In this document: in pieces, positions 1-6,554 of the stretch
How the letters are laid out: every line of letters begins with the position of its first letter
Numbering within the stretch: position 1 is the stretch's first letter
Translations under genes and position numbers: made by a program
The notes under the pieces: generated by a model
The model's database searches: none
What the model saw: only the letters and a program-made list of their open reading frames with translations
What the model was told of the DNA's origin: nothing
IMG/VR virus record: IMGVR_UViG_2531839585_000015
Direction: 5' to 3' (one strand)
DNA: 6,554 bases
From: a virus
Taxonomy: Duplodnaviria > Heunggongvirae > Uroviricota > Caudoviricetes

Positions 1-1
1 G

Positions 2-1714
2 AAGCTGCCGACGCTGCGCCAGCGCCTGTTCCGCTGCGTGAGTATCCGTGAGAACGACGACGGCACGTATGCCATCACCGCCGTGCAGCATGTACCGGAA
101 AAAGAAGCCATCGTGGATAACGGGGCGCACTTTGACGGCGACCAGAGCGGCACGGTGAATGGTGTCACGCCGCCAGCGGTGCAGCATCTGACCGCAGAAG
201 TCACCGCAGACAGCGGGGAATACCAGGTGCTGGCCCGCTGGGACACGCCGAAGGTGGTGAAGGGCGTGAGCTTCCTGCTTCGCCTGACCGTGGCAGCGGA
301 TGACGGCAGTGAGCGGCTGGTCAGCACAGCCCGGACGGCGGAAACCACATACCGCTTCACACAACTGGCGCTGGGGAACTACAGGCTGACAGTCCGGGCA
401 GTAAATGCGTGGGGGCAGCAGGGCGATCCGGCATCGGTATCGTTCCGGATTGCCGCACCGGCAGCGCCGTCGCAGATTGAGCTGACACCGGGGTATTTTC
501 AGATAACCGCCACGCCGCATCTTGCGGTTTATGATCCGACGGTACAGTTTGAGTTCTGGTTCTCGGAAAAGCGGATTGCGGATATCAGGCAGGTTGAAAC
601 CACAGCCCGCTACCTTGGCACGGGGCTGTACTGGATAGCCGCCAGTATCAATATCAAACCGGGCCATGATTATTACTTTTATATCCGCAGTGTGAACACC
701 GTTGGCAAATCGGCATTCGTGGAGGCCGTCGGTCGGGCGAGCGATGATGCGGAAGGTTACCTGGATTTTTTCAAAGGCAAGATAACCGAATCCCATCTCG
801 GCAAGGAGCTGCTGGAAAAAGTCGAGCTGACGGAGGATAACGCCAGCAGACTGGAGGAGTTTTCGAAAGAGTGGAAGGACGCCAACGATAAGTGGAATGC
901 CATGTGGGCTGTCAAAATTGAGCAGACCAAAGACGGCAAACATTATGTCGCGGGTATTGGCCTCAGCATGGAGGACACGGAAGAAGGCAAGCTGAGCCAG
1001 TTCCTGGTTGCCGCTAACCGTATCGCGTTTATTGATCCGTCTAATGGCAACACAAGACCAATGTTTGTTGGTCAGGGCGATCAGATATTCATGAACGACG
1101 TGTTCCTGAAACGCCTGACGGCTCCGACCATTACCAGCGGCGGTAATCCTCCGGCATTTTCCCTGACACCGGACGGGCGGCTGACGGCGAAAAATGCCGA
1201 TATCAGCGGTAACGTGAATGCGAACTCCGGGACGCTCAACAACGTCACGATTAACGAGAACTGTCGGGTTCTGGGAAAACTGTCCGCCAACCAGATTGAA
1301 GGCGATCTCGTTAAAACAGTGGGCAAAGCTTTCCCCCGGGACTCCCGTGCACCGGAACGGTGGCCATCAGGGACCATCACCGTCAGGGTTTATGACGATC
1401 AGCCGTTTGACCGGCAGATTGTTATTCCGGCGGTGGCATTCAGCGGCGCTAAACATGAGAGGGAGAATAACGATATTTATTCGTCATGCCGCCTGATAGT
1501 ACGGAAAAACGGTGCTGAAATTTATAACCGTACCGCGCTGGATAATACGCTGATTTACAGTGGTGTTATTGATATGCCAGCTGGTCGCGGCCACATGACG
1601 CTGGAGTTTTCGGTGTCATCATGGCTGGTAAATGACTGGTATCCCACAGCAAGTATCAGCGATTTGCTGGTTGTGGTGATGAAGAAAGCCACCGCAGGCA
1701 TCAGTATCAGCTGA
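2..1714 (+). CDS. J: Tail tip / host-specificity protein J, C-terminal ~570 codons; the 5' end lies upstream of the window
   Basis: Frame open from position 2 to TGA at 1712-1714 with no internal stops. The translation ([46 protein letters not shown]...[68 protein letters not shown]...) matches the C-terminal half of phage lambda J as I recall it. The last ~150 residues (from about [13 protein letters not shown]) differ from lambda J. Confidence 0.93.
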
Positions 1715-1733
1715 ATTTTATAACCCATATACG

Positions 1734-1760
1734 GGCGCCAGAAATGGCGCCTTTTTTATT
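1734..1760 (+). terminator. Rho-independent terminator candidate downstream of J
   Basis: Perfect 7-bp stem GGCGCCA (1734-1740) / TGGCGCC (1745-1751) with GAAA tetraloop (1741-1744), followed directly by TTTTTTATT (1752-1760). Begins 20 nt after the J stop codon. Confidence 0.65.
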
Positions 1761-1770
1761 GCAGAAAAGC

Positions 1771-1776
1771 GAGAGG
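1771..1776 (+). promoter_or_regulatory. Shine-Dalgarno sequence for lom
   Basis: GAGAGG lies 5 nt upstream of the ATG at 1782. Confidence 0.5.
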
Positions 1777-1781
1777 TAATT

Positions 1782-2369
1782 ATGCGTAAAGTTTGTGCAG
1801 CCATTTTGTCCGCAGCCATCTGTCTGGCCGTATCCGGTGCGCCTGCATGGGCGTCTGAGCAGCAGGCCACACTGAGCGCAGGGTATCTTCATGCCCGTAC
1901 GAACGCTCCCGGCAGCGATAATCTGAACGGGATTAACGTGAAATACCGTTATGAGTTTACGGACACGCTGGGGCTGATTACGTCATTCAGTTATGCCAAC
2001 GCTGAAGATGAGCAAAAAACGCATACAGCGATACCCGCTGGCATGAGATTCCGTGCGTAACCGCTGGTTCAGCGTGATGGCGGGCCGTCTGTCGCGTGAA
2101 TGAATGGTTCAGCGCGTATGCGATGGCGGGTGTGGCTTACAGCCGTGTGTCGACTTTCTCCGGGGATTATCTCGTACGACAAAGGGGAAAAGCACGATGT
2201 GCTGACCGGAAGTGATGACGGTCGCCACAGCAACACGTCTCTGGCGTGGGGGGCTGGCGTGCAGTTTAACCCGACCGAATCCGTGGCCATTGATATTGCT
2301 TATGAAGGCTCCGGCAGTGGTGACTGGCGCACTGACGGTTTCATCGTGGGTGTTGGTTATAAATTCTGA
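1782..2369 (+). pseudogene. lom: lom (Lom/Ail/PagC-family 8-strand beta-barrel outer-membrane protein), frame-disrupted as sequenced
   Basis: ATG at 1782 opens a typical signal peptide (MRKVCAAILSAAICLAVSGAPAWA) and Lom-like N-terminus (GINVKYRYEFTD...). Frame 0 hits TAA at 2058-2060. The Lom-like reading continues in another frame (VRNRWFSVMAG, 2053-2085), then another (NEWFSAYAMAGVAYSRVSTFSGDYL, 2099-2172), and returns to frame 0 for the C-terminus (HDVLTGSDDGRHSNTSLAWGAGVQFNPTESVAIDIAYEGSGSGDWRTDGFIVGVGYKF, stop TGA 2367-2369). Total span is 196 codons, the size of an intact Lom. At least 3-4 single-base frame changes fall between about 2020 and 2180. Confidence 0.85.
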
Positions 2370-2396
2370 TTAGCCAGGTAACACAGTGTTATGACA

Positions 2397-2422
2397 GCCC
2401 GCCGGTTCAGGCGGGCTTTTTT
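2397..2422 (+). terminator. Rho-independent terminator candidate between lom and stf
   Basis: Stem GCCCGCC (2397-2403) / GGCGGGC (2410-2416) with 6-nt loop, followed by TTTTTT (2417-2422). Begins 28 nt after the lom stop codon. Confidence 0.65.
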
Positions 2423-2433
2423 GTGGGGTGAAT

Positions 2434-3247
2434 ATGGCAGTAAAGATTTCAGGTGTACTGAAAGACGGCACAGGAAAACCGGTACAGAACTGCACAATCC
2501 AGCTGAAAGCAAAACGTAACAGCACCACGGTGGTGGTGAACACGCTGGCCTCAGAAAATCCGGATGAAGCCGGGCGTTACAGCATGGACGTTGAGTACGG
2601 CAGTACAGCGTTATTCTGTTGGTGGAGGTTCCCGCCGTCACATGCCGGGACCATCACGTGTATGAAGATTCACCGGTACGCTGAATGATTTTCTCGGTGC
2701 CATGACGGAGGATGATGCCGTCCGAGGCACTGCGCCGTTTGACTGATGGTGGAAGAGGTGGCGCGTAACGCGTCCGGGTGGCACAGAACACGGCAGCCGC
2801 AAGAAGTCAGCCAGGATGCCGCACATCGCCGTGAGGCGGCAACCCATGCGACTGATGCTCAGGCTCAGCACGGCAGCCAGCACTCAGCCGGCAGGCCGCG
2901 CGTCGGCTCAGTCAGCTCTTCCAGCGCAGGAACGGCATCAACAAAGCCTGAAGCATCAAAAGTGCTGCGCTGCAGAGTCCTCAAAAAGCGCGGCGCTACC
3001 AGTGCCGTGCGGCGAAAACGTCAGAAACGAATGCGCAGCGTCACAAAATCGCAGCCACTTCTGCATCCCCGCGACCACGAAGCGTCAGAAGCGCCACCTC
3101 AGCCCGGGATGCGGCGGCCTCAAAAGAGGCAGCGAAATCATCAGAAACGAACGCATCATCAAGCGCCAGTAGTGCCGCTTCCTCGGCAACGGCGGCAGGA
3201 ATTCCGCGAAGGCGGCAAAAACGTCGAGACAACGCCAGGTCTTCTGA
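2434..3247 (+). pseudogene. stf: Side tail fibre gene stf, 5' portion (tail-attachment domain and start of the Ala/Ser/Thr-rich region), multiply frame-disrupted as sequenced
   Basis: ATG at 2434 is preceded by GGGGTG. MAVKISGVLKDGTGKPVQNCTIQLKAKRNSTTVVVNTLASENPDEAGRYSMDVEYG is the lambda Stf / Rac StfR N-terminus as I recall it. After about 2600 the Stf-like reading hops between frames: PPSHAGTIT in frame 1 (2626-2658), YEDSP in frame 0 (2661-2675), TLNDFLGAMTEDDA in frame 2 (2678-2719), MVEEVARNAS in frame 1 (2746-2775), [36 protein letters not shown] in frame 0 (about 3087-3197). The first stop in the start frame is TGA at 2686-2688. Each frame alternates between Ala/Ser/Thr-rich (expected) and Arg/Gln/Pro/His-rich (shifted) stretches. 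Confidence 0.8.
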
Positions 3248-3760
3248 AACGGCAGCGGGACAGAGCGCCTCGCTGCGGCAGGCTCAAAAACAGCGGCTGC
3301 GTCGTCTGCCAGTGCCGCGTCAACAAGTGCCGGGCAGGCCTCAGCCAGTGCCACCGCCGCCGGAAAATCGGCAGAAAGTGCCGCATCGTCTGCTTCAACA
3401 GCCACAACGAAGGCTGGCGAAGCCACTGAACAGGCCAGCGCAGCAGCGAGGTCTGCTTCCGCAGCGAAGACATCCGAAACGAACGCGAAAGCGTCGGAAA
3501 CCAGCGCAGAATCCTCAAAAACGGCTGCCGCATCGTCAGCCAGTTCGGCGGCGTCATCGGCATCATCGGCGTCTGCTTCAAAAGATGAGGCGACCATACA
3601 GGCGTCAGCAGCGAAGGGCAGCGCCACGACGGCATCCACGAAGGCGACAGAGGCTGCTGGTAGTGCGACGGCAGCAGCTCAGAGCAAAAGTACGGCGGAA
3701 TCTGCAGCAACGCGCGCTGAGACAGCGGCAAAACGGGCAGAGGATATTGCATCCGCCGTG
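2850..3760 (+). repeat. Low-complexity, internally repetitive GC-rich segment encoding the Ala/Ser/Thr/Glu/Lys-rich linker of Stf
   Basis: Recurrent imperfect nucleotide motifs encoding (A)KTSETNA / SSETNA, for example 3015-3034, 3138-3158, 3471-3489. Dominated by GCN, TCN and ACN codons. It produces long spurious ORFs in the alternate + frame and on the - strand. Confidence 0.6.
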
Positions 3761-5791
3761 GCGCTTGAGGATGCGAGCACGACGAAAAAGGGGATAGTAC
3801 AGCTCAGTAGTGCGACTAACAGCACGTCTGAAACGCTGGCGGCAACGCCAAAGGCAGTAAAATCAGCCTATGACAATGCAGAGAAACGTCTGCAGAAAGA
3901 CCAGAACGGCGCTGATATACCCGATAAGGGACGCTTCCTGAACAACATTAACGCGGTCAGTAAAACAGACTTTGCTGATAAGCGTGGTATGCGTTATGTG
4001 CGGGTTAACGCTCCTGCAGGTGCAACATCTGGAAAATATTACCCTGTTGTTGTTATGCGTTCTGCTGGCTCAGTAAGCGAACTGGCATCAAGGGTCATTA
4101 TCACCACGGCAACGCGAACCGCAGGCGATCCGATGAATAACTGCGAGTTTAACGGATTTGTTATGCCTGGTGGCTGGACTGACAGGGGGCGTTATGCTTA
4201 TGGAATGTTCTGGCAATATCAAAACAATGAACGAGCCATCCACTCAATAATGATGAGTAATAAGGGCGATGATTTGCGCTCTGTGTTCTATGTTGATGGC
4301 GCTGCTTTCCCTGTTTTTGCGTTTATCGAAGATGGCCTGTCAATATCCGCACCTGGTGCTGATCTCGTTGTTAATGATACGACCTATAAGTTTGGGGCAA
4401 CAAATCCGGCGACTGAATGTATCGCGGCGGACGTTATCCTTGATTTTAAGAGTGGGCGTGGTTTTTATGAGTCTCATTCGTTAATCGTTAACGATAACTT
4501 GTCGTGCAAAAAACTTTTTGCCACAGACGAAATTGTAGCGCGTGGTGGTAATCAGATTCGAATGATAGGTGGGGAGTATGGGGCATTATGGCGTAATGAT
4601 GGCGCTAAAACTTACCTGCTGCTTACCAATCAAGGTGATGTTTATGGTGGCTGGAATACATTAAGACCGTTTGCTATTGATAACGCAACCGGCGAACTGG
4701 TTATTGGAACCAAACTGTCCGCAAGTCTGAACGGTAATGCATTAACAGCAACAAAGCTGCAAACGCCAAGACGGGTTTCTGGTGTTGAGTTTGATGGTTC
4801 CAAAGATATTACTTTAACCGCCGCGCATGTGGCTGCTTTTGCCAGAAGGGCAACGGATACATATGCCGATGCGGATGGTGGCGTTCCCTGGAATGCCGAA
4901 TCAGGCGCTTATAATGTCACCCGCTCTGGCGACAGCTATATTCTGGTTAACTTCTATACCGGAGTCGGAAGTTGCCGGACCTTGCAGATGAAGGCGCATT
5001 ACAGAAATGGTGGTCTGTTCTACCGTTCTTCAAGAGACGGTTATGGTTTTGAGGAAGACTGGGCAGAAGTTTATACCTCGAAAAATCTTCCACCAGAAAG
5101 CTACCCAGTCGGCGCACCAATCCCGTGGCCATCAGATACCGTTCCGTCTGGTTATGCCCTGATGCAGGGGCAGACTTTTGACAAATCTGCCTACCCGAAA
5201 CTTGCAGCCGCTTATCCGTCAGGCGTGATCCCTGATATGCGTGGCTGGACGATTAAGGGCAAGCCCGCCAGTGGTCGTGCCGTATTGTCTCAGGAACAGG
5301 ACGGCATAAAATCGCATACCCACAGCGCCAGCGCATCCAGTACTGATTTGGGGACGAAAACCACATCGTCGTTTGATTACGGCACTAAATCCACGAATAA
5401 CACTGGTGCGCATACCCATAGTTTAAGTGGCAGCACGAATGCAGCTGGTAATCACAGCCATAGAGATGGCCGTCGATTTAACCCCAGTGTTTTTAAAGAT
5501 ACTTATCAATATGGTTATACAAGCTCAGGTCAAAATACCTGGGGTGTACAAGGCTCAGTAGGTATGTCTACGGGGGCGTTAGCTAATACCAGTACAGATG
5601 GTAACCATAGCCACTCACTGTCCGGCACAGCAGCATCTGCAGGTGCACACGCACATACTGTCGGTATTGGTGCACACACGCACTCCGTTGCGATTGGTTC
5701 ACATGGACACACCATCACCGTTAACGCTGCTGGTAACGCGGAAAACACCGTCAAAAACATCGCATTTAACTATATTGTGAGGCTTGCATAA
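3248..5791 (+). CDS. stf: Side tail fibre protein Stf, uninterrupted 3' portion (847 codons: rest of the Ala/Ser/Thr-rich linker, a central shaft module, and a His-rich lambda-type distal tip)
   Basis: Frame 2 is open from 3248 to TAA at 5789-5791. The ORF track starts it at GTG 3758 only because no start codon occurs earlier in this Ala/Ser/Thr-rich stretch. The C-terminus ([76 protein letters not shown]...[31 protein letters not shown]) matches the lambda Stf / T4 gp37-type tip as I recall it. The whole ORF resembles E. coli Rac StfR from memory; this is not verified by search. Confidence 0.9.
5777..5782 (+). promoter_or_regulatory. Shine-Dalgarno sequence for tfa, inside the 3' end of stf
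   Basis: GTGAGG lies 8 nt upstream of the tfa ATG at 5791-5793. The stf stop and tfa start overlap as TAATG. Confidence 0.5.
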
Positions 5792-6432
5792 TGGCATTCA
5801 GAATGAGTGAACAACCACGGACCATAAAAATTTATAATCTGCTGGCCGGAACTAATGAATTTATTGGTGAAGGTGACGCATATATTCCGCCTCATACAGG
5901 TCTGCCAGCAAACAGTACCGATATTGCACCGCCAGATATTCCGGCTGGCTTCGTGGCTGTTTTCAACAGTGATGAGGCATCGTGGCATCTCGTTGAAGAC
6001 CATCGGGGAAAAACGGTTTATGACGTGGCTTCCGGCGACGCGTTATTTATTTCTGAACTTGGCTCGTTACCGGAAAATGTCACCTGGTTATCGCCGGAAG
6101 GGGAATATCAGAAGTGGAACGGCACAGCCTGGGTGAAGGATACGGAAGCAGAAAAACTGTTCCGGATCCGGGAGGCGGAAGAAACAAAAAACAGCCTGAT
6201 GCAGGTAGCCAGTGAGCATATAGCGCCACTTCAGGATGCTGTAGATCTGGAGATCGCAACGGAGGAAGAAACCTCATTGCTGGAAGCCTGGAAAAAATAT
6301 CGGGTGTTGCTGAACCGTGTTAATACAACAACTGCACCGGATATTGAATGGCCAACAGTACCCATACACAATGTAAGCGAAAAAGAAAAACCGCAGACAC
6401 GACGTATGCAGGACGTGCTGCGGTTTGGCTAG
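5791..6432 (+). CDS. tfa: Tail fibre assembly protein Tfa (chaperone for Stf), 213 aa
   Basis: Intact ORF from ATG 5791 to TAG 6430-6432. The translation [91 protein letters not shown]... is nearly identical over most of its length to lambda Tfa as I recall it, but with a different, longer C-terminal end. Position directly after stf is the canonical arrangement. Confidence 0.95.
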
Positions 6433-6554
6433 TAAACTTTTGATAGTGCGAGTATTGAATGATTTCCAGCCCATTACTCATTTTACGCTTTTCACGCGCA
6501 AGAGAAATTGAACTTTATTCCTCTGTCACCACATGACGGGGATTAACATTCTGG

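What the first reader, a model, noticed from the sequence alone, without database searches (positions are those of the whole stretch)
2020..3250. Two confined blocks of dense single-base frame disruption inside an otherwise clean tail module
Directly visible: J (571 codons), the 3' 847 codons of stf, and tfa (213 codons) read with no frame break, including across homopolymers such as the T6 run in J near 765. Between about 2020-2180 (lom) and 2600-3250 (stf) the homologous reading switches frame many times. Where I can reconstruct the expected codons, the changes look like single-base losses, mostly in 2-4 nt mononucleotide runs; the TITVYEDS...ELM stretch spans 99 nt where about 108 are expected. 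Natural decay would not usually give such a high, loss-biased, sharply bounded density beside pristine neighbours. A technical cause is more likely: lom and the stf 5' region are shared by several lambdoid prophages in one genome, so short-read polishing of a long-read assembly fails there. If real, both the Lom outer-membrane protein and the side tail fibre are inactivated.
Basis: partly seen in the sequence, partly recalled or inferred. Interest (0 to 1): 0.55.

Follow-up and report, generated by a model that had tools for sequence, protein, structure and literature searches.

The report
Assembly artefact: prophage repeats merged, mismatches dropped
The many apparent frameshifts in the lom and side-tail-fibre genes are almost certainly not real mutations: a draft assembler merged two similar prophage copies and left out one base wherever the copies differed.

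Summary
Against 13 intact references, the window has 46 deletion events (53 nt; 41 of them single-base), no insertions and only about 7 substitutions. They are confined to 2023-2191 (lom) and 2598-3271 (stf 5' part). Filling them in restores a 199-aa Lom and a 1132-aa Stf.

They are not natural decay, and they are not long-read errors left unpolished. The window is an entire 6554-bp contig (APZI01000095.1, E. coli P0305293.13). That isolate series was sequenced with Illumina 100-bp reads only and assembled with Celera Assembler.

The lost bases are not tied to homopolymers. Instead they sit on sites where lom/stf alleles differ: 42 of 46 events (13 expected by chance), and 68% are at third codon positions. 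In related complete ETEC genomes, the contig's left flank, middle and right flank each match best at a different prophage. In strain 504237, the sites where those co-resident copies disagree explain 34 of 46 events (4.7 expected).

The contig is therefore a chimeric merge of paralogous prophage tail regions across a shared segment of about 1.25 kb, with each mismatch column dropped. Biological interest is low; the result is useful as a warning about pseudogene calls.

The parts
1..1714 (+). 3' 570 codons of tail-tip gene J, cut by the contig start. This is the unique left flank. Its best matches lie in a different prophage from the one that best matches the right flank.
   Evidence: Single ORF. 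Pfam Ig_J, Phage_Tail_Tip and Ig_GpJ_C hits. Best match 97.4% in ETEC genomes, at loci distinct from those of the right flank.
1782..2369 (+). lom (Ail/Lom outer-membrane beta-barrel). It is read as two fragments in the contig; after repair it is intact at 199 aa.
   Evidence: The fragments at 1782-2060 and 2145-2369 both hit PF06316. The repaired protein matches PF06316 over 1-199/199, E=8.5e-126.
2023..2191 (+). Block A: 9 pseudo-deletion events (12 nt lost) in the 3' half of lom.
   Evidence: Most of the events lie at sites that are polymorphic between alleles.
2192..2597 (+). Clean segment between the blocks: the lom 3' end, the intergenic terminator-like hairpin and the first 55 codons of stf. 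It is just as multi-copy as the blocks, but the copies are nearly identical here.
   Evidence: 3.2 places per genome, and 1680 records at >=99% identity against 187 and 250 for the blocks. Co-resident copies in strain 504237 disagree at 1.8 sites per 100 nt here, against 8.0 and 6.5 in the blocks.
2434..5791 (+). stf (side tail fibre). It is fragmented in the contig; after repair it is intact at 1132 aa.
   Evidence: The repaired ORF matches PF08400 phage_tail_N over 1-134/134 (E=1.6e-71), and also Gp34_trimer and Collar. References have intact ORFs of 1129-1150 codons.
2598..3271 (+). Block B: 37 pseudo-deletion events (41 nt lost) in the stf N-terminal domain and the start of the Ala/Ser-rich shaft.
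   Evidence: The events coincide with allelic and paralogous SNP sites. The 3' edge coincides with a drop in copy number from about 3.1 to about 1.5 per genome.
3276..6365 (+). Unique right flank: the stf middle and C-terminal part plus most of tfa. It reads cleanly.
   Evidence: 99.3% identical to a prophage of ETEC strains 504237, 120899, 602354 and others, at a locus different from that of the left flank.
5791..6432 (+). tfa (tail fibre assembly protein), 213 aa, with an atypical C-terminal end after about 6365.
   Evidence: PF02413 Caudo_TAP, E=1.5e-43. This exact protein is on record only from this contig; relatives are 191-194 aa. The homology break is shown.

Best explanation
The two blocks are artefacts of draft assembly, not mutations.

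The source genome carries several lambdoid prophages. Their lom 3' half and stf 5' part are about 92-100% identical, while the sequences on either side differ much more. An overlap-layout-consensus assembly of 100-bp Illumina reads joined sequence from one prophage (J and the lom 5' part) to sequence from another (the stf middle part to tfa) through this shared segment of about 1.25 kb.

Wherever the co-assembled copies disagreed, the consensus emitted no base. Each paralogous SNP therefore became a 1-nt deletion, and adjacent SNPs became 2-3-nt deletions. Where the copies are identical (2192-2597) the consensus is clean. Outside the shared segment only one copy contributes, so the neighbouring genes look pristine.

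Shown: the position, kind and context of the events; their coincidence with allelic and paralogous SNP sites; the multi-copy status of the segment; and the fact that the two flanks belong to different prophages in related genomes.

Inferred: the exact software step. Either mismatch columns were split into two half-gap columns that were both called as gaps, or ambiguous consensus characters were stripped out. Also inferred: that isolate .13 was sequenced and assembled like the rest of its series.
For: (1) Kind of change: 46 deletions, 0 insertions and about 7 substitutions in roughly 850 nt, identical against 13 references. Repairing them restores both genes.

(2) Uniqueness: no complete E. coli genome of 5,426 matches better than 96.8%. 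The two Lom fragments looked up (92 and 74 aa) are on record only from this contig, and the nearest similar fragment in another assembly has a different disruption.

(3) The window is a whole 6554-bp WGS contig of E. coli P0305293.13. The isolate series was Illumina-only and assembled with Celera Assembler.

(4) Position relative to allelic variation: 42 of 46 events lie on sites polymorphic among 23 alleles (expected 13.3 +/- 3.1; 0 of 5000 permutations). At site level, Fisher odds ratio 7.9, p=1e-16. The result is stable when any one allele is left out.

(5) A check that does not use the panel: 17 of 25 unambiguously placed single-base losses are at codon position 3 (p=4e-4), as expected for natural synonymous SNPs and not for random error.

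(6) Copy number: the segment is multi-copy (about 3 per genome), dropping to about 1.5 right after block B. Other short-read assemblies break their contigs inside this same region (L009-L014 start at window 2821-3479).

(7) Chimerism: in seven complete ETEC genomes the left flank, middle and right flank have their best matches at three different loci.

(8) Direct test: in strain 504237, the sites where the co-resident copies disagree explain 34 of 46 events (expected 4.7 +/- 2.1; 0 of 5000). Their disagreement density is 8.0 and 6.5 per 100 nt in the blocks against 1.8 in the clean gap.

(9) Co-assembly of near-identical repeat copies, marked by correlated SNPs, is a documented class of mis-assembly (PMC2397507).
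Against: The reads and the other contigs of the source assembly could not be examined. Read depth, mate-pair violations and the actual co-resident alleles are therefore untested.

Twelve of the 46 events are not explained by the proxy strain 504237, and 4 are not polymorphic in my panel. About half of the L/R differences in 504237 are not deleted in the window. This is expected if the source strain's copies differ from the proxy's (the left flank is only 97.4% identical), but it is not proven.

Up to 9 events fall within 100 nt. That is a high mismatch rate for reads to be co-assembled, unless more than two copies took part or the merge happened at unitig or contig level.

I could not confirm from the assembly record that P0305293.13 itself was sequenced and assembled as the papers describe for the series; the supplementary table was not available.

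I know of no published description of a consensus step that turns mismatches into deletions.
Confidence: 0.9

Rival explanations
1. Real pseudogenes: lom and stf of a decaying prophage accumulated many small deletions in vivo, inactivating Lom and the side tail fibre.
For: Prophage tail genes do decay. Single stf frameshifts exist naturally: lambda/DE3 carries stf as orf-401 and orf-314, a metagenomic relative (L008) has one frame break, and copyL of strain 504237 has a truncated stf.
Against: There are 46 deletions with 0 insertions and almost no substitutions, next to intact neighbours. The deletions are not enriched in homopolymers, where natural indels concentrate. None of the events is shared by any of 5,426 complete genomes or by the 13 aligned references. 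The events sit on paralogous and allelic SNP sites and on third codon positions, which mutational decay does not predict.
Confidence: 0.02
2. One reading: a long-read (nanopore or PacBio) assembly in which short-read polishing failed in a multi-copy region, leaving raw deletion errors.
For: The errors are deletions only, confined to a multi-copy region. This failure mode is well known for hybrid assemblies (my own background knowledge, not checked here).
Against: The isolate series was sequenced on Illumina HiSeq2000 only and assembled with Celera Assembler in about 2011-2013. The window is a 6.5-kb contig, not part of a long-read chromosome. Raw read errors would be random with respect to paralog SNPs and codon position, but 42 of 46 and 34 of 46 events sit on such sites and 68% are at position 3. 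The equally repeated segment 2192-2597 is error-free.
Confidence: 0.03
3. The same artefact, but the two haplotypes came from a mixed DNA preparation (two clones, or an induced phage variant) rather than from paralogous prophages within one genome.
For: The paper on these isolates reports that a few patients carried mixtures of distinct ETEC strains. The signal in the window only says that two or more sequence versions were merged.
Against: Related single-clone complete genomes already contain the required copies at separate loci. Multi-copy lom/stf is the rule in E. coli: the median is 2 and the maximum 13-14 copies per genome that has any. The isolates were single colonies.
Confidence: 0.05

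Closest known systems
Collapsed or co-assembled near-identical repeat mis-assembly (Phillippy, Schatz and Pop 2008, 'Genome assembly forensics', PMC2397507)
   Same: Reads from distinct repeat copies are joined into one unit. The differences between the copies mark the mis-assembled region. Unique flanks from different copies can end up joined.
   Different: The described signature is correlated SNPs in the read pile-up, with the consensus taking one of the bases. Here the consensus has lost the base at each such site, producing frameshifts. I did not find that outcome described in the passages I read.
Lambda-type tail module J-lom-stf-tfa (phage lambda, Rac stfR/tfaR, Qin stfQ/tfaQ)
   Same: Same gene order and the same protein families. 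After repair, Lom is 199 aa and Stf is 1132 aa, with the phage_tail_N, Gp34_trimer and Collar domains. References annotate the same genes.
   Different: As deposited, lom and stf are unreadable. The J-lom 5' part and the stf-tfa part probably belong to two different prophages.
Natural stf frameshift of laboratory lambda (orf-401 / orf-314)
   Same: The stf reading frame is broken in the 5'-to-middle part of the gene (DE3 annotation).
   Different: Lambda's stf is annotated as just two ORFs, consistent with a single break (that it is one real mutation is background knowledge). Here there are 37 events in stf alone, all deletions, at paralog SNP sites, and found in one draft contig only.

Membership tests
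Collapsed/chimeric repeat mis-assembly | The affected segment is present in two or more similar copies in the genome. | tested here: met
   Tested by proxy. There are about 3 places per complete E. coli genome for blocks A and B and for the gap, against 1.5 downstream. Three co-resident copies were fetched from the related ETEC strain 504237. The source genome itself was not available.
Collapsed/chimeric repeat mis-assembly | The anomalies coincide with the positions at which the copies differ. | tested here: met
   42 of 46 events lie on allelic polymorphic sites (13.3 expected). 34 of 46 lie on sites where the co-resident copies of strain 504237 disagree (4.7 expected). There is also a third-codon-position bias.
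Collapsed/chimeric repeat mis-assembly | Raised read depth, a second haplotype in the reads, and violated mate pairs over the segment. | not testable with these tools
Collapsed/chimeric repeat mis-assembly | The flanks joined by the repeat belong to different genomic loci. | tested here: met
   Tested by proxy. In seven complete ETEC genomes the left flank (97.4%) and the right flank (99.3%) map to different prophages. No genome carries the whole window at more than 96.9% identity.
Genuine pseudogene (natural decay) | The disruptions are reproducible in independent data or shared by relatives. | tested here: not met
   No event is shared by any of the 13 aligned references, and no complete E. 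coli genome of 5,426 matches the interval above 96.8%. The frameshift ORF products are unique to this contig.
Genuine pseudogene (natural decay) | A mutation spectrum typical of decay: substitutions outnumber indels, both insertions and deletions occur, and indels favour homopolymers and short repeats. | tested here: not met
   46 deletions, 0 insertions and about 7 substitutions. The homopolymer classes match uniform expectation.
Unpolished long-read error block | A long-read platform was used. | tested here: not met
   The isolate series was Illumina HiSeq2000 plus Celera Assembler. This is inferred for isolate .13; the record's own metadata were not seen.
Unpolished long-read error block | Errors are random with respect to paralog SNP sites and biased towards homopolymers. 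| tested here: not met
Ail/Lom family (PF06316) | A full-length match to the family profile. | tested here: met
   The repaired Lom matches 1-199/199, E=8.5e-126. The unrepaired fragments also hit PF06316.
Lambdoid side tail fibre Stf (PF08400 N-terminal domain) | The N-terminal prophage tail fibre domain together with C-terminal fibre domains in one ORF. | tested here: met
   Met only after repair: PF08400 1-134/134 (E=1.6e-71), Gp34_trimer and Collar. As deposited, the ORF is split.

The most novel reading that the evidence does not exclude
The deletions are real. A recombination intermediate (heteroduplex) between two diverged prophage copies was processed in vivo so that each mismatch was resolved as a one-base deletion, creating a genuinely inactivated recombinant lom-stf locus. 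This would be an undescribed mutagenic outcome of recombination between diverged (homeologous) copies.
Probability: 0.01. Interest if true: 0.8.

Novelty: not a real feature. Interest (0 to 1): 0.1.

Why it matters
Biologically it does not matter: there is no evidence that Lom or the side tail fibre is inactivated in this ETEC isolate.

Practically it is a useful warning. A deposited draft contig can be a chimera of two prophages, and every paralogous SNP within the shared segment can appear as a frameshift. Such contigs inflate pseudogene counts, add spurious short proteins to databases (for example END52325 and END52326), and could be misread as prophage decay or as loss of a virulence-associated outer-membrane protein.

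The signature should allow automated flagging in other assemblies of the same era and pipeline. It consists of deletions only, no homopolymer bias, third-codon-position bias, coincidence with allelic SNP sites, and sharp bounds at mosaic junctions.

Tried and rejected
(1) Random read-error model. The uniform base and homopolymer context at first suggested random per-base loss, as in low-coverage single-molecule data. I rejected this once the events proved to sit on polymorphic sites and the platform proved to be Illumina.

(2) Single partner allele. I rebuilt an 'all-alternative' allele B and searched for it. The best natural match was only 97.5%. This was uninformative, because phase is unknown. 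later showed that the real copies swap 'ref' and 'alt' states between the two halves of block B.

(3) Best pair within my 24-allele panel. It explained at most 27 of 46 events, so the true partners were not in the panel.

(4) Diverse alleles from viral contigs through the search for related loci. I used the phage hits instead.

(5) Sister isolates and other assemblies of the project. The contig-edge J fragment and the Lom fragments are on record only from this contig. The paper's supplementary table was not held, and the accession is not cited in the searchable literature.

(6) A similar 74-aa Lom fragment in another assembly (P0018). Its N-terminus is different, so the disruption is unrelated.

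(7) I considered, but did not test, nanopore methylation-motif errors, 454 or Ion Torrent homopolymer errors, and DGR-type mutagenesis. None of them fits deletion-only changes at SNP sites in Illumina data.
Full report
WHAT THE WINDOW IS

The ORF map and sequence show a lambdoid tail module:
- the 3' 570 codons of J (to 1714);
- lom (1782-2369);
- stf (ATG at 2434, stop at 5791);
- tfa (5791-6432).

An exact-product look-up shows that the window is the whole of one WGS contig, APZI01000095.1 (6554 bp), of assembly GCA_000356865.2 (sequence identity verified). The source is Escherichia coli P0305293.13.

Isolates named P0305293.x are ETEC from a cholera-like case in Bangladesh in 2011, sequenced at the GSCID/IGS centre (PMC4309559). 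The papers describing this multi-colony series report Illumina HiSeq2000 sequencing with 100-bp paired reads and 300-bp inserts, more than 200x coverage, and assembly with Celera Assembler (PMC4462620; PMC5469772). I could not see the record's own metadata or the paper's Table S1, so applying this to isolate .13 is an inference.

CHECKING THE OBSERVATION

The best match among 5,426 complete E. coli genomes covers the 2201-nt query (window 1700-3900) with 2254 reference bases at 96.8% identity. The best phage matches behave the same way.

Pairwise alignment to three annotated references with intact lom and stf, and then to ten more loci, always gives the same picture:
- 9 deletion events in 2023-2191;
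- about 37 deletion events in 2598-3271;
- no insertions and only 1-12 substitutions per block;
- a clean interval at 2192-2597;
- clean sequence on both sides of the blocks.

Sizes are 41 x 1 nt, 3 x 2 nt and 2 x 3 nt, 53 nt in all. Filling exactly these events restores a 199-aa Lom and a 1132-aa Stf, with full-length Pfam matches.

One sub-claim fails. The losses are not mainly in mononucleotide runs: 25 of 41 are at non-run positions against 24.5 expected under uniform loss (chi2 1.9, 3 df), and the composition of the lost bases matches the background.

WHY THIS IS NOT NATURAL DECAY

A ratio of 46 deletions to 0 insertions to about 7 substitutions, with no homopolymer bias, is unlike bacterial pseudogene decay (established knowledge about indel spectra, not tested here).

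None of the events appears in any reference. The frameshift-specific products are on record only from this contig, or not on record at all. A Lom fragment of similar length in another assembly turned out to carry a different disruption.

The relatives with an identical 677-aa Stf C-terminus have intact stf ORFs of 1145 codons. The '677-aa' gene there is only a gene-caller choice.

WHY THIS IS NOT UNPOLISHED LONG-READ ERROR

Besides the Illumina-only platform, the errors are not random.

I built a panel of 23 lom/stf alleles from genomes, metagenomes and phages, projected onto one reference:
- 42 of 46 events fall on sites that are polymorphic in the panel. Random placement within the blocks gives 13.3 +/- 3.1, and 0 of 5000 permutations reached 42.
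- At the level of single sites, Fisher's odds ratio is 7.9 (p=1e-16). Leaving out any one allele gives 40-42 events.

A test that does not depend on the panel agrees. Of the 25 single-base losses whose placement is unambiguous, 17 are at third codon positions (p=4e-4). The lost bases therefore mirror natural, largely synonymous differences between alleles.

WHERE THE TWO VERSIONS COME FROM

Using intact reference sequence as query, the copy numbers per complete genome that has any copy are:

| Segment | Places per genome |
|---|---|
| Block A | 2.98 |
| Clean gap (2192-2597) | 3.22 |
| Block B | 3.10 |
| Just after block B | 1.51 |

 So the 3' edge of block B is the end of the repeat. The clean gap is equally repeated but far more conserved: 1680 records at >=99% identity, against 187 and 250 for the blocks.

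Independent short-read assemblies break their contigs inside this same stf 5' region: the contigs of L009-L014 start at window positions 2821-3479.

No genome carries the whole window at more than 96.9% identity. In seven complete ETEC genomes (504237, 120899, 602354, 103605, 204446, ETEC-2265, LR883006) the three parts of the window have their best matches at three different chromosomal loci. The left flank (1-2019) matches at 97.4%, the right flank (3276-6365) at 99.3%, and the middle as found.

I fetched the three co-resident copies of strain 504237:
- copyL fits the window's J and lom 5' part best (49 and 3 substitutions);
- copyR fits the stf C-terminal part and tfa best (5 and 4 substitutions), but differs from the window's J by 251 substitutions plus indels.

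The sites where these co-resident copies disagree explain 34 of the 46 events (4.7 +/- 2.1 expected; 0 of 5000 permutations). Their disagreement density per 100 nt is:

| Segment | Disagreeing sites per 100 nt |
|---|---|
| lom 5' part | 12.5 |
| Block A | 8.0 |
| Clean gap | 1.8 |
| Block B | 6.5 |

 CopyL carries the 'reference' state in the first half of block B and the 'alternative' state in the second half. This explains why my reconstructed all-alternative allele has no natural counterpart.

MECHANISM

Shown:
- the contig's interior 2023-3271 behaves as the intersection of two or more paralogous sequences, with the base missing at each disagreement;
- the flanks belong to different prophages in the nearest complete genomes.

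Inferred:
- During overlap-layout-consensus assembly, sequence from one prophage was merged with sequence from another across the shared segment.
- Mismatch columns were then emitted as gaps. Either a mismatch was laid out as two half-gap columns that were both called as gaps, or ambiguous consensus characters were removed afterwards.
- Outside the segment the copies are too divergent to be merged. Inside 2192-2597 they are identical. Together these explain the sharp bounds and the pristine neighbours.

Co-assembly of near-identical repeats, marked by correlated SNPs, is a documented class of mis-assembly (PMC2397507). I did not find the conversion of those SNPs into deletions described there.

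Weak points:
- the reads and the source's other contigs were not available;
- 12 events are not explained by the proxy strain;
- up to 9 events fall within 100 nt, which suggests that more than two copies were involved or that the merge happened at unitig level.

COMPARISON WITH WHAT IS KNOWN, AND VERDICT

The genes are ordinary members of the Ail/Lom, lambdoid Stf and Tfa families. The 'feature' itself is a chimeric, collapsed-repeat mis-assembly.

The specific mechanism (long reads with failed polishing) and the claimed homopolymer context are not supported.

Novelty class: not a real feature. Interest is low, apart from its value as a documented artefact signature. The only exciting reading left is that a real in-vivo process deletes one base at each heteroduplex mismatch. 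I put this at about 1%.

Noticed in passing
window 6357-6554 (tfa 3' end and contig tail): The 213-aa Tfa is on record only from this contig; relatives are 191-194 aa. Homology to all references stops at about 6357-6365. Window 6382/6385-6488 then matches sequence that lies about 1.7 kb further downstream in the references: beyond pinQ-ydfK-ynfT in a Qin-like prophage (L028), and beyond a diguanylate cyclase gene in L005/L009. This could be a real 1.7-kb deletion or mosaic junction, or a second mis-join at the contig end.
   Followed up: partly
window 1-6554 as a whole: The contig is probably a chimera. In seven complete ETEC genomes, J plus the lom 5' part matches one prophage and the stf middle part to tfa matches another. 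No complete genome carries the combination at more than 96.9% identity.
   Followed up: yes
L005 and L007 (stf at 4597-8031); window 3758-5791: The collection's gene calls start Stf at an internal GTG (677-aa product) and add a 245-aa antisense ORF, even where stf is one intact 1145-codon frame. The Ala/Ser-rich shaft also keeps a 359-codon alternative frame open (for example L001 4072-5148). Gene calls in this region are unreliable even without assembly errors.
   Followed up: partly
L029 (NZ_CP025862.1 2102467-2104110), copyL of ETEC strain 504237: In this complete genome, the prophage that best matches the window's left flank has an stf annotated as incomplete (C-terminus missing). It is a genuine truncated stf next to an intact lom, so real decay of this locus does occur in the lineage. 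It takes the form of a truncation, not a shower of 1-nt deletions.
   Followed up: no
L008 (ENA metagenome scaffold), stf at 1259-4848: stf is split into two overlapping frames (1259-2854 and 1843-4848), which suggests a single frameshift, as in laboratory lambda. Whether it is real or an assembly error was not examined.
   Followed up: no
L001 1-3015 (NZ_AP027479.1 gpJ): The J gene of the best overall reference is annotated as a pseudogene with an internal stop.
   Followed up: no
window about 1733-1760 and about 2396-2423: GC-rich hairpins followed by T runs lie after J and after lom. They correspond in position to the rho-independent terminators annotated in phage mEp460 (L025 38-64 and 713-738). 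Both lie outside the disrupted blocks.
   Followed up: no
window 700-1100 (J): This stretch holds the densest substitutions against L001/L002, together with an in-frame length difference near 801-900 that was scored as 26 deletion events. J stays open throughout, so this looks like ordinary allelic mosaicism in the J C-terminal region, unlike the frameshifting blocks.
   Followed up: partly
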